This document shows positions 15,106 through 18,195 of a stretch of 64,000 bases of DNA, piece after piece. Positions within the stretch are counted from its first letter, which is position 1. Each line of letters begins with the position of its first letter. The notes under the pieces are model-generated. The model made no database searches and was not told the origin of the DNA. It saw only the letters and a program-made list of their open reading frames with translations. The stretch lies in assembly GCF_055900595.2 (NCBI RefSeq), contig NZ_CM148325.1. One strand, 5' to 3'. The position numbers and the translations under genes were made by a program.

Positions 15106-16479
15106 TTATTTTAATAACCGCACCCGGCACGTTTTTCCTTTAATCTTCCCGCCCTGTAACTGTTTCCATGCTTTATGAGCAACAGCCTGACGCACCGCAA
15201 CATAGACATGCGCCGGATGCACGGCGATTTTGCCAATATCTGCGCCATCAAGCCCGATATCTCCTGTCAGCGCACCTAATACATCACCCGGGCGCATTTT
15301 GGCTTTTTTCCCGCCATCGATACACAACGTTGCCATTTCTGCTTCCAGCGGCACAATGGAACTATTAACTGGCGGCGTTTGCCAGTTAAGTTTTATCTGC
15401 AACATGTCAGAAATGATATTGGCCCGCTGTGCTTCTTCCGGGGCACAGAAACTGATCGCCAGACCGCTATTTCCTGCACGCGCTGTACGACCGATGCGAT
15501 GTACATGAACTTCAGGATCCCACGCCAGTTCAAAGTTCACTACCAGCTCAAGCGATTTAATATCAAGACCACGCGCAGCAACATCCGTCGCGACCAGCAC
15601 ACGAGCGCTACCGTTAGCAAAACGTACCAGGGTCTGATCGCGGTCACGTTGCTCCAGATCGCCATGTAACGACAATGCACTTTGCCCTATGTCATTCAGC
15701 GCGTCGCAGACAGCCTGACAATCTTTTTTGGTATTGCAAAACACCACGCAAGAGGATGGCTGATGCAAACTTAATAACCGTTGCAACAGCGGAATTTTGC
15801 CTTTGCTGGATGTCTCATAAAATTGTTGTTCAATGGGAGGCAGAGCATCTGTTGAGTCAATTTCAATCGCCAATGGATCGCGTTGAACTCGTCCGCTGAT
15901 TGCGGTGATGGCTTCCGGCCAGGTTGCCGAAAACAGAAGCGTCTGTCGAGATGCTGGCGCAAAACGGATAACATCATCAATGGCATCGCTAAATCCCATA
16001 TCCAGCATGCGATCGGCTTCATCCATCACCAGCATATTCAACGCATCCAGTGATACCGTGCCTTTTTGCAGATGGTCCAGCAAACGACCTGGGGTTGCCA
16101 CGATAATATGCGGCGCATGTTGCAACGAATCACGCTGCATACCGAACGGTTGACCACCGCACAAAGTCAAAATTTTGGTATTTGGCAGAAAACGCGCCAG
16201 CCGACGCAATTCACCTGCCACCTGATCCGCCAGTTCACGCGTAGGACACAGCACTAAAGCCTGGGTCTGAAATAGCGACGCATCAATTTTCTGTAGCAGC
16301 CCGAGGCCAAAAGCCGCCGTTTTGCCGCTGCCGGTTTTCGCCTGCACGCGAACATCTTTTCCGGCAAGGATCGCCGGAAGCGCGGCGGCCTGCACCGGCG
16401 TCATAGTTAAATAACCCAACTCATTAAGGTTCGTGAGTTGGGCGGGAGGCAAAACATTCAGGGTAGAAAAAGCGGTCAC
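15106..16479 (-). CDS. dbpA: ATP-dependent RNA helicase DbpA (DEAD-box)
   Basis: 457-aa ORF with Walker A GSGKT, DEAD box (VMDEADRM), SAT and HRIGRTAR motifs. Confidence 0.9.
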   Translation of the reverse strand: MTAFSTLNVLPPAQLTNLNELGYLTMTPVQAAALPAILAGKDVRVQAKTGSGKTAAFGLGLLQKIDASLFQTQALVLCPTRELADQVAGELRRLARFLPNTKILTLCGGQPFGMQRDSLQHAPHIIVATPGRLLDHLQKGTVSLDALNMLVMDEADRMLDMGFSDAIDDVIRFAPASRQTLLFSATWPEAITAISGRVQRDPLAIEIDSTDALPPIEQQFYETSSKGKIPLLQRLLSLHQPSSCVVFCNTKKDCQAVCDALNDIGQSALSLHGDLEQRDRDQTLVRFANGSARVLVATDVAARGLDIKSLELVVNFELAWDPEVHVHRIGRTARAGNSGLAISFCAPEEAQRANIISDMLQIKLNWQTPPVNSSIVPLEAEMATLCIDGGKKAKMRPGDVLGALTGDIGLDGADIGKIAVHPAHVYVAVRQAVAHKAWKQLQGGKIKGKTCRVRLLK

Positions 16480-16509
16480 AATCTGTTCTCGTGGTCATCG
16501 ACGCAAAAA

Positions 16510-16683
16510 TTAGCAAGCGCGTATCCTCGCAGATCTACGCTCACGATGCGACAATTTAATCGGTTCTTCATCGGGTGGTGGGTCAGGCATGGGTTGCGGG
16601 CGAGGGATTGGATCGGGCACTGGAACAGGATCGCCAGGAATCGGTTCAGGGACAGGAATTTGCAAATAAATGAGTGTCGTCAT
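16510..16683 (-). CDS. Candidate small proline-rich protein (57 aa), unannotated
   Basis: Own translation: MTTLIYLQIPVPEPIPGDPVPVPDPIPRPQPMPDPPPDEEPIKLSHRERRSARIRAC; ATG at 16683..16681 preceded by GGAGGG with 4-nt spacer; stop TAA 16512..16510; below the 60-aa track cutoff. Confidence 0.35.
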   Translation of the reverse strand: MTTLIYLQIPVPEPIPGDPVPVPDPIPRPQPMPDPPPDEEPIKLSHRERRSARIRAC

Positions 16684-16740
16684 ATTTCCCTCCGGTCATT
16701 GGGTGGACTCTTAAAGGGTAGACGCTGATATATAACAGGC

Positions 16741-16862
16741 AAAAAAAAGCCGACTCATCAAAGTCGGCGTCGTACGAATCAATTGTGCTATGCAGTAATT
16801 CAAAAAAGGAAGTAAGACAATATGGAGCGCAACGCCCATCGCTTGACGTTGCATTCACCTGC
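16741..16862 (-). ncRNA. fnrS: FnrS sRNA (FNR-activated)
   Basis: Reverse complement begins GCAGGTGAATGCAACGTCAAGCGATGGGCGTTGCGCTCCATATTGTCTTACTTCC and ends in hairpin GCCGACTTTGATGAGTCGGC plus T8, matching my recollection of FnrS; lies between zntB and dbpA. Confidence 0.85.
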
Positions 16863-16897
16863 GAGAGAGATATTGCCCTGAATGGGTAGAGAGTTTA

Positions 16898-16911
16898 TTG
16901 ACTTCGCTCAA
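16898..16911 (-). promoter_or_regulatory. Putative FNR box upstream of fnrS
   Basis: Minus strand reads TTGAG-cgaa-GTCAA (consensus TTGAT-N4-ATCAA), about 40 nt upstream of the inferred fnrS 5' end. Confidence 0.55.
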
Positions 16912-16957
16912 ACTTTGCGGCGTTTTTGTATACAGATAGTAGGGAAAATTGCTGTTG

Positions 16958-17962
<1,005 letters not shown>

Positions 17963-18195
17963 TTATTTTGTAGTCTAGCCTTCTGGCCCTGTTACGCAAC
18001 ATCTCATCACCCCATTACCCTGAAATGATTAATAAAATTCTGTCTAAATTGAATACAAAAAGCAAAATGCTTTTCCATATACAAACCGTGTGAAGTGTTA
18101 AATAGCGTCTATCATTATCAGAATTATCTGATCATATGACGTGGCTTTTTTGCGATCGGATAGCAACAAAAATTGATAAAAATAACGGGATCTCA

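What the first reader, a model, noticed from the sequence alone, without database searches (positions are those of the whole stretch)
16510..16683. Candidate 57-aa proline-rich small ORF between fnrS and dbpA
On the minus strand, 58 nt downstream of the fnrS terminator and 30 nt upstream of the dbpA start, an ATG preceded by GGAGGG (4-nt spacer) opens a 57-codon frame encoding MTTLIYLQIPVPEPIPGDPVPVPDPIPRPQPMPDPPPDEEPIKLSHRERRSARIRAC. The DNA shows 3-nt periodicity (CCN codons). Repeated PxP and PPP motifs are classic ribosome-stalling sequences that depend on EF-P, so this could be a regulatory leader peptide for the downstream DEAD-box helicase gene, or an independent small protein. It is below the ORF-track size cutoff and I do not recall an annotated gene here.
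Basis: seen in the sequence. Interest (0 to 1): 0.5.

Follow-up and report, generated by a model that had tools for sequence, protein, structure and literature searches.

The report
Known small-protein gene ynaL
The 57-codon proline-rich ORF between fnrS and dbpA is real and translated, but it is the already annotated E. coli small-protein gene ynaL (Pfam PF23677), whose function, including any role as a dbpA leader, is still untested.

Summary
The ORF lies at 16510..16683 (-), with GGAGGG, a 4-nt spacer and ATG. It sits 57-61 nt after fnrS and 30 nt before the dbpA GTG.

It is not new. It is ynaL (b4743, "proline-rich small protein YnaL"), annotated in nearly all 5,392 matching complete E. 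coli genomes. It matches Pfam PF23677 over its full length (136.8 bits). The protein was detected by SPA-tag immunoblot in VanOrsdel et al. 2018.

My comparison of 80 Enterobacteriaceae dbpA loci shows the frame is kept in 68 species. A 29-codon core is under protein-level purifying selection (dN/dS 0.09, against 0.05 for dbpA).

The last ~50 nt of the ORF are constrained as nucleotides, not codons. They stay invariant in species where ynaL stops early and in Kluyvera, which lacks ynaL. This stretch aligns with a canonical extended -10 promoter in outgroups. In some genera it sits inside a terminator-like hairpin.

The EF-P/leader idea is plausible, since DPPPD is a strong-stall motif. It is untested, it is weakened by three species with no Pro-Pro pair at all, and dbpA does not need ynaL. 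Verdict: already known, low interest.

The parts
16510..16683 (-). ynaL coding sequence (57 codons plus TAA). The protein is identical to E. coli K-12 YnaL (b4743, YP_009518775.1 / WP_001296046.1).
   Evidence: Pfam PF23677 match 1-57/57, 136.8 bits.
16688..16693 (-). Shine-Dalgarno GGAGGG, 4 nt upstream of the ynaL ATG (K-12 has GAGGG).
   Evidence: A 4-5-nt SD match followed by ATG is conserved 15-21 codons upstream of the core in almost all of the 68 species.
16546..16632 (-). Conserved peptide core D18-H46 (DPVPVPDPIPRPQPMPDPPPDEEPIKLSH), under protein-level purifying selection.
   Evidence: Entropy by codon position is 0.21/0.14/1.11, against 0.20/0.10/1.14 for dbpA. dN/dS is 0.091, against 3.0 and 5.4 in the other sense frames.
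16570..16584 (-). D34-P-P-P-D38, a motif of the strong EF-P-dependent stalling class.
   Evidence: Sequence. DPPPD is present in 61/68 species, PPP in 64/68, and 3 species have no PP at all. Motif class from PMC5811046 and PMC4176338.
16546..16563 (-). Nucleotide-invariant block 1, CCGATTAAATTGTCGCAT (codons P41-H46). It contains TTGTCG (16554..16549), a possible -35, and GUCGCA (16552..16547), which is complementary to the dbpA start region.
   Evidence: Synonymous diversity drops to pS 0.15 against 0.63 in the rest of the core. The columns are invariant. The block is retained in Kluyvera, which lacks ynaL. The GUCGCA:UGUGAC helix holds in 63/63 sequences but is invariant.
16517..16536 (-). 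Nucleotide-invariant block 2, AGATCTGCGAGGATACGCGC (codons R50-A56). It contains the extended -10-like TGcGAGGAT (16531..16523) and a GC-rich discriminator-like ACGCGC. This is a candidate dbpA proximal promoter and/or the top of a hairpin with a GNRA loop.
   Evidence: pS is 0.014 and dN/dS 5.7, so it is not codon-like. It stays invariant downstream of early stop codons in 12 species and in ynaL-less Kluyvera. It aligns with ATGACC-N17-TGcTAGAAT-GCGCGCC in outgroups.
16505..16544 (-). Weak terminator-like hairpin (GUGAGCGU...GCGCUUGC, 16544..16513), the ynaL stop codon, and U5 (16509..16505).
   Evidence: flags a site at 16530..16513. The fold has dG -14.4 kcal/mol and z -0.7 in this window, but dG -19 to -27 and z -2 to -4 in Citrobacter, Leclercia, Lelliottia and Klebsiella. 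It is not universal.
16477..16490 (-). dbpA translation initiation region: weak SD GAGA (16490..16487) and GTG start (16479..16477).
   Evidence: The columns are invariant.
16745..16862 (-). fnrS sRNA gene (upstream neighbour). Its terminator U-run extends to about 16741.
   Evidence: Rfam RF01796, 134.8 bits. K-12 annotation.
15106..16479 (-). dbpA (ATP-dependent RNA helicase DbpA), the downstream neighbour.

Best explanation
This is ynaL, an already described and annotated enterobacterial small-protein gene. It is translated from a strong SD+ATG into a 57-aa protein.

The functional part of the protein is a 29-residue acidic, proline-rich segment (D18-H46), selected at the amino-acid level about as tightly as DbpA. 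The N-terminal ~17-20 residues evolve freely. The basic C-terminal tail (RERRSARIRAC) is dispensable as peptide.

The last ~50 nt of the ORF also serve as DNA/RNA control sequence for the downstream helicase gene dbpA. They contain an invariant block homologous to an extended -10 promoter (TGcGAGGAT plus a GC-rich discriminator). In many genera this block is enclosed in a hairpin followed by a U-run.

Shown here: identity, coding status, the two-layer constraint, and the independence of the nucleotide block from ynaL translation.

Inferred: (a) YnaL most likely acts in trans as a small protein, through a rigid polyproline-II-type segment that binds an unknown partner (about 0.5). (b) The invariant block is dbpA's own promoter overlapping the ynaL terminator (about 0.5), so ynaL and dbpA would largely be separate transcription units. 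(c) ynaL translation may additionally modulate read-through into dbpA (see the first rival).

The biochemical function of YnaL has not been established by anyone in the literature I could search.
For: Identity:
- 5,392 of 5,426 complete E. coli genomes carry the stretch, and the listed rows annotate ynaL there.
- The K-12 and exact-match strain annotations agree.
- The sequence is identical to the YnaL listed in PMC6001520, where the SPA-tagged protein was detected and a tetracycline ribosome-profiling signal was noted.
- Pfam PF23677 matches full length, E 2e-40.
- All 162 homologue clusters carry PF23677, and every one that names an organism is Enterobacteriaceae.

Coding status:
- The frame is intact in 68/80 species loci that were chosen with DbpA as query, not YnaL.
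- The codon-position entropy pattern matches dbpA's.
- dN/dS is 0.091 in this frame only; the wobble-aligned antisense frame gives 0.118, which is an expected artefact.
- The SD+ATG is conserved.
- All differences between E. coli E69 and the window in the core are at third codon positions.

Nucleotide layer:
- The tail has pS 0.014.
- The block stays invariant after early TAG/TAA/TGA stops in 12 species and in Kluyvera without ynaL.
- It aligns to ATGACC-N17-TGcTAGAAT-GCGCGCC in Cedecea, Dryocola, Atlantibacter and Siccibacter.
- A hairpin plus U-run is seen in several genera.
Against: No function is known, and no partner, structure or phenotype is available.

The promoter reading is not backed by a mapped TSS; supplement look-ups found nothing. 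The E. coli-clade version is a poor consensus match: GAGGAT, with a 20-nt spacer to TTGTCG. The sigma-70 scan called nothing.

Strict synteny with dbpA, the strong-stall motif, and the pattern of variable N-terminus with conserved C-proximal segment are also what a cis-acting regulatory nascent peptide would show.
Confidence: 0.85

Rival explanations
1. ynaL acts mainly in cis as a regulatory leader ORF for dbpA. When translation of the proline-rich stretch is slow (low EF-P activity or low Pro-tRNA), the ribosome lags behind RNA polymerase. The hairpin plus U-run at the ynaL 3' end then forms, or Rho loads, and transcription stops before dbpA. When ynaL is translated efficiently, the ribosome covers the 5' arm and melts the GUCGCA:UGUGAC pairing with the dbpA start, so dbpA is expressed. 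Synthesis of a ribosome-assembly helicase would thereby be tied to elongation capacity.
For: - DPPPD is in the strong-stall class and is present in 61/68 species.
- The ORF always ends 14-63 nt before dbpA, inside or just after the hairpin region.
- Terminator-like hairpins are strong in Citrobacter, Leclercia, Lelliottia and Klebsiella.
- GUCGCA is complementary to the dbpA GUG region in 63/63 sequences.
- EF-P is known to prevent premature intrinsic and Rho-dependent termination on polyproline mRNAs (PMC5021804).
- Proline-codon leader ORFs are known in mgtA/mgtCBR.
- The pattern of variable N-terminus with a conserved ~30-aa C-proximal segment fits a nascent chain acting in the exit tunnel.
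Against: - E. albertii and two Citrobacter youngae-type species have DPSPD and no PP anywhere.
- Kluyvera has dbpA and the invariant block but no ynaL.
- 14/63 sequences lack a U-run, and the E. coli hairpin is weak (z -0.7).
- The whole E. coli segment folds no better than shuffles (z -0.43).
- The helices have no significant covariation beyond what relatedness allows.
- If the embedded promoter is real, most dbpA mRNA would not contain ynaL.
- Near-complete conservation of 29 residues exceeds what a stall sensor needs.
- The full-length tagged protein accumulates.
Confidence: 0.25
2. The nucleotide-invariant 3' part of ynaL is not a promoter but an RNA element of a ynaL-dbpA transcript. Under this reading it is a hairpin with a GNRA tetraloop (AUCU[GCGA/GAGA]GGAU) that binds a protein or sRNA, or that controls dbpA translation or stability.
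For: - The inner stem is invariant, and the single variable loop base (C/A) preserves GNRA.
- The outer stem pairs in 75% of cells, with 20 compensatory cells, a value no shuffle reached (0/500).
- In several genera the block forms the top of a stable hairpin.
Against: - Related sequences can beat shuffles without any structure, as the tool's caveat states.
- RNAalifold did not recover this hairpin in its consensus.
- The outgroup homologue reads as a textbook extended -10 promoter rather than a hairpin.
- Complete invariance gives no covariation to judge by.
Confidence: 0.35
3. The ORF is a chance open frame in a non-coding spacer, or the real gene is on the opposite strand (96-aa ORF at 16438..16728, +).
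For: ORFs of this size are common by chance. CCN-rich DNA is also open on the antisense strand. One antisense frame gives dN/dS 0.118.
Against: - The frame, SD and ATG are conserved in 68 species.
- dN/dS is 0.09 in this frame.
- The 96-aa antisense ORF is in the frame with dN/dS 1.59.
- The low-ratio antisense frame is the wobble-aligned one, has stops in 7/69 loci, and has no ORF of at least 30 aa in the window.
- The protein was detected experimentally.
Confidence: 0.01

Closest known systems
YnaL (E. coli K-12 b4743; Pfam PF23677 'Protein YnaL-like'; RefSeq 'proline-rich small protein YnaL')
   Same: The 57-aa sequence is identical, the position is the same (fnrS-ynaL-dbpA), and the Pfam match is full length.
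   Different: Nothing differs at the protein level. This strain has a stronger SD (GGAGGG against GAGGG) and one more T in the post-stop T-run than K-12.
Proline-codon leader ORFs of Salmonella Mg2+ transporter operons (mgtL of mgtA; mgtP of mgtCBR), read out through EF-P and Pro-tRNA
   Same: Both are short ORFs upstream of, and on the same strand as, a regulated gene. Both carry proline codons whose translation speed could decide between alternative RNA structures or termination (PMC3641672, PMC6460261).
   Different: Those leaders are much shorter, and only their Pro codons matter. YnaL has a 29-aa core conserved at almost every residue, it accumulates as a protein, three species have lost all Pro-Pro pairs, and dbpA persists without it in Kluyvera. 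No alternative-structure switch is demonstrated here.
EF-P-maintained transcription-translation coupling on polyproline mRNAs (Elgamal, Artsimovitch & Ibba 2016, PMC5021804)
   Same: A polyproline motif lies upstream of a terminator-like hairpin plus U-run on the same transcript. This is the arrangement in which loss of EF-P causes premature termination.
   Different: It has not been tested at this locus. The E. coli hairpin is weak, and a promoter-like block lies inside it.
Ribosome arrest peptides (SecM, TnaC, MifM)
   Same: The N-terminus is variable and the C-proximal segment, about the length of the exit tunnel, is conserved. The ORF sits immediately upstream of the gene it might control.
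   Different: No arrest has been shown. Arrest peptides usually conserve a few key residues, whereas here nearly all 29 are conserved. The C-terminally tagged full-length product accumulates.
Polyproline spacer of TonB / proline-rich antimicrobial peptides
   Same: They share a Pro-X-Pro rich composition, and there is a weak compositional hit to the TonB polyproline region.
   Different: The hits are far below threshold (20.8 bits against a 315 cut-off; Pfam E 0.75). YnaL's core is acidic, whereas PrAMPs are cationic (the PrAMP comparison is from my own knowledge, not tested). This is resemblance in composition only.

Membership tests
YnaL family (Pfam PF23677; RefSeq 'proline-rich small protein YnaL') | Significant full-length match to the family HMM | tested here: met
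   PF23677, 136.8 bits, E 2.2e-40, residues 1-57 to model 1-57/57. All 162 homologue clusters carry PF23677.
YnaL family (Pfam PF23677; RefSeq 'proline-rich small protein YnaL') | Sequence identity to the experimentally detected K-12 protein | tested here: met
   The 57-aa sequence is identical to the YnaL listed in PMC6001520, 1409308..1409481. The K-12 annotation is b4743.
YnaL family (Pfam PF23677; RefSeq 'proline-rich small protein YnaL') | Genomic position between fnrS and dbpA, on the same strand | tested here: met
   Rfam fnrS at 16745..16862 (-). dbpA at 15106..16479 (-). The annotations agree.
YnaL family (Pfam PF23677; RefSeq 'proline-rich small protein YnaL') | The product is actually translated | not testable with these tools
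   From the literature only: SPA-tag immunoblot, and listed as positive in a tetracycline ribosome-profiling screen (PMC6001520). It is supported indirectly by dN/dS 0.09 and a conserved SD+ATG.
EF-P / proline-sensing regulatory leader ORF (mgtL/mgtP type attenuator) | Short ORF immediately upstream of the regulated gene, on the same strand | tested here: met
   There are 30 nt between the ynaL stop and the dbpA GTG, and 14-63 nt across the 68 species.
EF-P / proline-sensing regulatory leader ORF (mgtL/mgtP type attenuator) | ORF and regulated gene lie on one transcript | not tested
   No TSS or operon data could be retrieved. A promoter-like block inside the ynaL 3' end suggests dbpA may have its own start.
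EF-P / proline-sensing regulatory leader ORF (mgtL/mgtP type attenuator) | Conserved stall-inducing proline codons | tested here: inconclusive
   DPPPD is present in the window and in 61/68 species, and PPP in 64/68. Three species have no PP at all.
EF-P / proline-sensing regulatory leader ORF (mgtL/mgtP type attenuator) | Alternative RNA structures or a terminator whose formation depends on ribosome position | tested here: inconclusive
   A terminator-like hairpin is strong in some genera, weak in E. coli and absent in Enterobacter. The start-codon helix is invariant, so it offers no covariation. The E. coli fold has z -0.43.
EF-P / proline-sensing regulatory leader ORF (mgtL/mgtP type attenuator) | Downstream gene expression changes when leader translation or EF-P is perturbed | not testable with these tools
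   This needs ynaL start-codon and PPP mutants with dbpA fusions in wild type and an efp mutant.
Ribosome arrest peptide (SecM/TnaC type) | The nascent chain arrests its own ribosome at a defined codon | not testable with these tools
   Only the conservation pattern (variable N-terminus, conserved 29-aa C-proximal core) is compatible.
TonB polyproline region | Match above the family cut-off | tested here: not met
   NCBIfam TonB gives 20.8 bits against a cut-off of 315. Pfam TonB_N gives E 0.75.

The most novel reading that the evidence does not exclude
YnaL is a dual-use element. Its conserved proline-rich nascent chain would make ynaL translation a sensor of elongation capacity (EF-P, EfpL or Pro-tRNA). 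The position of the ynaL ribosome on the hairpin and promoter-containing 3' end would decide whether upstream transcription reads through into dbpA. Production of a 50S-assembly helicase would thus be coupled to the cell's ability to translate difficult sequences. The same DNA would simultaneously encode a peptide, a terminator and the dbpA promoter.
Probability: 0.2. Interest if true: 0.55.

Novelty: already known. Interest (0 to 1): 0.15.

Why it matters
The finding itself re-discovers an annotated gene, so it adds nothing to the catalogue.

Three side results appear not to be in the literature I could search:
- YnaL is conserved across at least 68 enterobacterial species, with a DbpA-like level of purifying selection on a 29-aa core.
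- Its 3' end is constrained as nucleic acid, independently of its translation.
- That stretch looks like the dbpA promoter nested in a terminator-like hairpin.

These give concrete, cheap experiments for a small protein of unknown function that sits next to a ribosome-assembly helicase. If the cis-regulatory reading were true, it would be a new example of EF-P-linked attenuation in E. coli.

Tried and rejected
- NCBIfam has no YnaL-specific HMM. It gave only sub-threshold compositional hits to TonB and similar families.
- A sequence search of the PDB found nothing.
- Full-text searches for ynaL found only one relevant paper, VanOrsdel 2018. There is no functional study, and nothing links dbpA to EF-P beyond co-enrichment in exponential phase.
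- I tried to get MG1655 TSS, operon and 3'-end data from supplements of the Cappable-seq, SMRT-Cappable-seq, Rend-seq and Term-seq papers. There were no hits or no files held, and the Thomason 2015 paper is not held under the id I tried.
- The sigma-70 consensus scan of 16350..17000 called no promoter.
- RNAalifold on 63 sequences gave only one invariant 6-bp helix.
- The SD-side extension of that helix was no better than shuffles.
- The E. coli segment folds no better than shuffled sequence.
- I considered and rejected sigma-28, sigma-54 and CRP/FNR-like readings of the invariant blocks, because the matches by eye were poor. These were not formally tested.
- I considered a mimic of 23S hairpin 92 (the DbpA target). 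I saw no similarity by eye and did not test it formally.
- I rejected the 96-aa antisense ORF, which is in the frame with dN/dS 1.59.

Full report
**1. Observation**

GGAGGG lies at 16693..16688, followed by a 4-nt spacer and the ATG at 16683. The frame is 57 codons long and ends with TAA at 16512..16510. The dbpA GTG at 16479 follows 30 nt later.

The peptide is MTTLIYLQIPVPEPIPGDPVPVPDPIPRPQPMPDPPPDEEPIKLSHRERRSARIRAC, with 16 prolines. Rfam confirms fnrS at 16745..16862 (-) with 134.8 bits. By the K-12 annotation its end maps to 16741, which is 57 nt before the ATG.

ORF length alone is not significant here: 48 ORFs of at least 30 aa overlap the neighbouring 4 kb.

**2. Identity**

A megablast of the 321-nt stretch against 5,426 complete E. 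coli genomes hits 5,392 of them at 95% identity or more. Twenty-four of the 25 listed rows annotate 'ynaL: (proline-rich small) protein YnaL' upstream of dbpA.

In MG1655 the order is zntB, fnrS (b4699), ynaL (b4743, 1409308..1409481), then dbpA (b1343). The 100%-identical strain 2013C-4282 carries WP_001296046.1.

VanOrsdel et al. 2018 (PMC6001520) list YnaL with this identical 57-aa sequence. It is among 36 small proteins detected by chromosomal SPA tagging and immunoblot. The authors note that it was also positive in a tetracycline ribosome-profiling screen, and that it lies next to dbpA and may be in an operon with it.

Pfam has a family for it. PF23677 'Protein YnaL-like' matches residues 1-57 of 57 at 136.8 bits. 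All 162 homologue clusters carry that domain, and every one that names an organism is Enterobacteriaceae. There is no PDB relative by sequence.

No other paper in the searchable library discusses ynaL's function.

**3. Is it really coding, and which part?**

I fetched dbpA loci from one genome per species, using DbpA as query so that the sample was not biased toward YnaL. This gave 80 Enterobacteriaceae loci.

A YnaL-position ORF is present in 68 of them. The genera include Escherichia, Citrobacter, Enterobacter, Lelliottia, Leclercia, Klebsiella, Raoultella, Kosakonia, Salmonella arizonae, Superficieibacter, Pseudocitrobacter and others. A 4-5-nt SD match followed by ATG lies 15-21 codons upstream of the conserved core in almost all of them.

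The N-terminal ~20 residues are hypervariable. The core DP(V/I)PxPDPIPRPQPMPDPPPDEEPIK(L/M)SH is nearly invariant.

Over the 29 core codons, column entropy by codon position is 0.21/0.14/1.11. This is indistinguishable from dbpA codons 1-60, at 0.20/0.10/1.14.

Pooled Nei-Gojobori dN/dS values:

| Region / frame | dN/dS |
|---|---|
| ynaL core, ynaL frame | 0.091 |
| dbpA codons 1-60 | 0.052 |
| ynaL core, other sense frames | 3.0 and 5.4 |
| Antisense frame of the 96-aa ORF | 1.59 |
| Wobble-aligned antisense frame | 0.118 |

The low value in the wobble-aligned antisense frame is an expected artefact. That frame has stops in 7/69 loci and no ORF of at least 30 aa in the window. The core is therefore under protein-level purifying selection.

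**4. A second layer of constraint**

The 3' end of the ORF behaves differently. For the RSARIRAC tail, pS is 0.014 and dN/dS is 5.7. The EEPIKLSH codons also have a reduced pS, 0.15 against 0.63 upstream.

Two blocks are invariant at all three codon positions:
- CCGATTAAATTGTCGCAT, at 16563..16546
- AGATCTG(C/A)GAGGATACGCGC, at 16536..16517

In 12 species the frame stops right after ...SHR or ...SR, using TAG, TAA or TGA. Block 2 is unchanged downstream of that stop.

Kluyvera species lack the ynaL ORF entirely; there the fnrS terminator is followed after about 85 nt by dbpA. They keep both blocks at the same 36-37-nt distance from the dbpA start.

More distant genera (Cedecea, Dryocola, Atlantibacter, Siccibacter) have neither fnrS nor ynaL at this position. 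The aligned position there reads ATGACC-N17-TGcTAGAAT (or TAGACT/TAGCAT)-GCGCGCC. This is a textbook extended -10 sigma-70 promoter with a GC-rich discriminator.

The E. coli-clade version is TTGTCG-N20-TGcGAGGAT-ACGCGC. It keeps TG, -11A and -7T, but it is a poor consensus match and the simple scan does not call it.

I infer that the ynaL tail overlaps dbpA's proximal promoter. This is not proven, because I could not retrieve TSS data.

**5. RNA structure**

RNAalifold on 63 non-identical sequences returns one helix. GUCGCA, in codons L44-H46, pairs with UGUGAC, which is the dbpA GUG and its flanks. It is paired in 63/63 sequences but invariant, so it has no covariation support. An SD-side extension of this helix is no better than shuffles.

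Block 2 can form AUCU[GNRA]GGAU with a GC outer stem. It is 75% paired with 20 compensatory cells, a value no shuffle reached (0/500). Relatedness alone could produce that result.

Folding each species separately gives a lineage-dependent picture:
- Citrobacter, Leclercia, Lelliottia, Klebsiella and Raoultella have a long hairpin running from GUCGCAU to xUGUGAx and abutting U4-6. Its dG is -19 to -27 kcal/mol and its z-score -2 to -4. This is intrinsic-terminator anatomy that encloses the promoter-like block.
- In this E. coli window the equivalent hairpin spans 16544..16513, followed by UAA and U5. It is weak, with dG -14.4 kcal/mol and z -0.7.
- 14 of 63 sequences, mostly Enterobacter, have no U-run.

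The whole E. coli segment folds no better than shuffled sequence (z -0.43). The structure evidence is therefore suggestive and lineage-dependent, not decisive.

**6. The EF-P/leader interpretation**

Published hierarchies put PPP and D/PP/D among strong stallers, and D/E/R/K/Q before PPP among enhancers (PMC5811046, PMC4176338). So DPPPD at 16584..16570 is a credible strong EF-P-dependent pause site.

EF-P is known to prevent premature Rho-dependent and intrinsic termination on polyproline mRNAs (PMC5021804). Proline-codon leader ORFs regulate the mgtA and mgtCBR operons. A cis-regulatory role for ynaL is therefore mechanistically plausible.

Several results argue against it being the main or essential function:
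- PPP is present in 64/68 species, but E. albertii and two Citrobacter youngae-type species have DPSPD and no Pro-Pro pair at all.
- Kluyvera dispenses with ynaL while keeping dbpA and its control block.
- Conservation extends to nearly every residue of a 29-aa segment.
- The C-terminally tagged full-length protein accumulates.

DbpA and EF-P are both enriched in exponential phase (PMC13393375). That is only a correlation.

**7. Verdict**

The feature is the known gene ynaL, so novelty is 'already known' and interest is low.

My best reading has three parts:
- ynaL is a bona fide small protein whose acidic polyproline core is the selected part. It most likely acts in trans on an unknown partner (about 0.5).
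- Its 3' end doubles as dbpA control DNA/RNA. A promoter nested in a terminator-like hairpin has a probability of about 0.5, and a purely RNA element about 0.35.
- The cis-leader/EF-P attenuator model remains a live rival at about 0.25.

Simple fusion and TSS experiments can decide between these readings.

Noticed in passing
window 16708..16742 (-): Between the fnrS terminator and the ynaL SD, the motif (A)GCGTCTACCCT(T/A)(T/A)AAG is conserved in all genera that have ynaL, and GCTACCCT survives in Kluyvera. It could be a weak promoter for ynaL: TTGCCT (16742..16737), a 16-nt spacer, then TACCCT (16720..16715). The -35 would overlap the end of the fnrS terminator. The sigma-70 scan did not call it, and there are no TSS data.
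   Followed up: partly
L072, L073, L075, L079, L080 (Kluyvera and a related MAG), about 140 nt upstream of dbpA: These genomes lack the ynaL ORF altogether; about 150 nt are missing between the post-fnrS motif and GATTA..TTGTCGCAT. They retain fnrS, both invariant nucleotide blocks and dbpA. This is a natural ynaL deletion, useful as a comparative control.
   Followed up: partly
L005 (E. coli strain E69), aligned to window 16617..16649: This strain has an in-frame 33-nt (11-aa) deletion in ynaL, between the two similar PVP(E/D)PIP units, giving a 46-aa protein. Shorter 42-46-aa variants also appear among the homologue clusters. The N-proximal proline repeat therefore seems expendable and prone to slippage.
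   Followed up: partly
window 16505..16509 and 16688..16693 (-): There are small strain polymorphisms relative to K-12. The SD is GGAGGG here against GAGGG in MG1655. The post-stop run is TAATTTTT here against TAACTTT in MG1655, so the terminator-like U-run is longer in this strain.
   Followed up: no
window 17955..18002 (-): A 15-codon ORF ([15 protein letters not shown]) lies just upstream of zntB. It corresponds to the annotated small protein/leader YnaN (b4773). This is another annotated micro-ORF in the same neighbourhood.
   Followed up: no
window 16438..16728 (+): A 96-aa ORF lies antisense to all of ynaL. It is a compositional by-product of CCN codons (NGG on the other strand). Substitutions fall on its first codon position and its dN/dS is 1.59.
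   Followed up: yes
L071, L074, L076-L078, L081, L082 (Cedecea, Dryocola, Atlantibacter, Siccibacter), 40-75 nt upstream of dbpA: In genera without fnrS or ynaL at this locus, dbpA is preceded by a near-consensus extended -10 promoter, ATGACC-N17-TGcTAGAAT, with a GC-rich discriminator GCGCGCC. That discriminator would be compatible with growth-rate or stringent control of this ribosome-assembly helicase. The stringent-control link is my inference only.
   Followed up: partly
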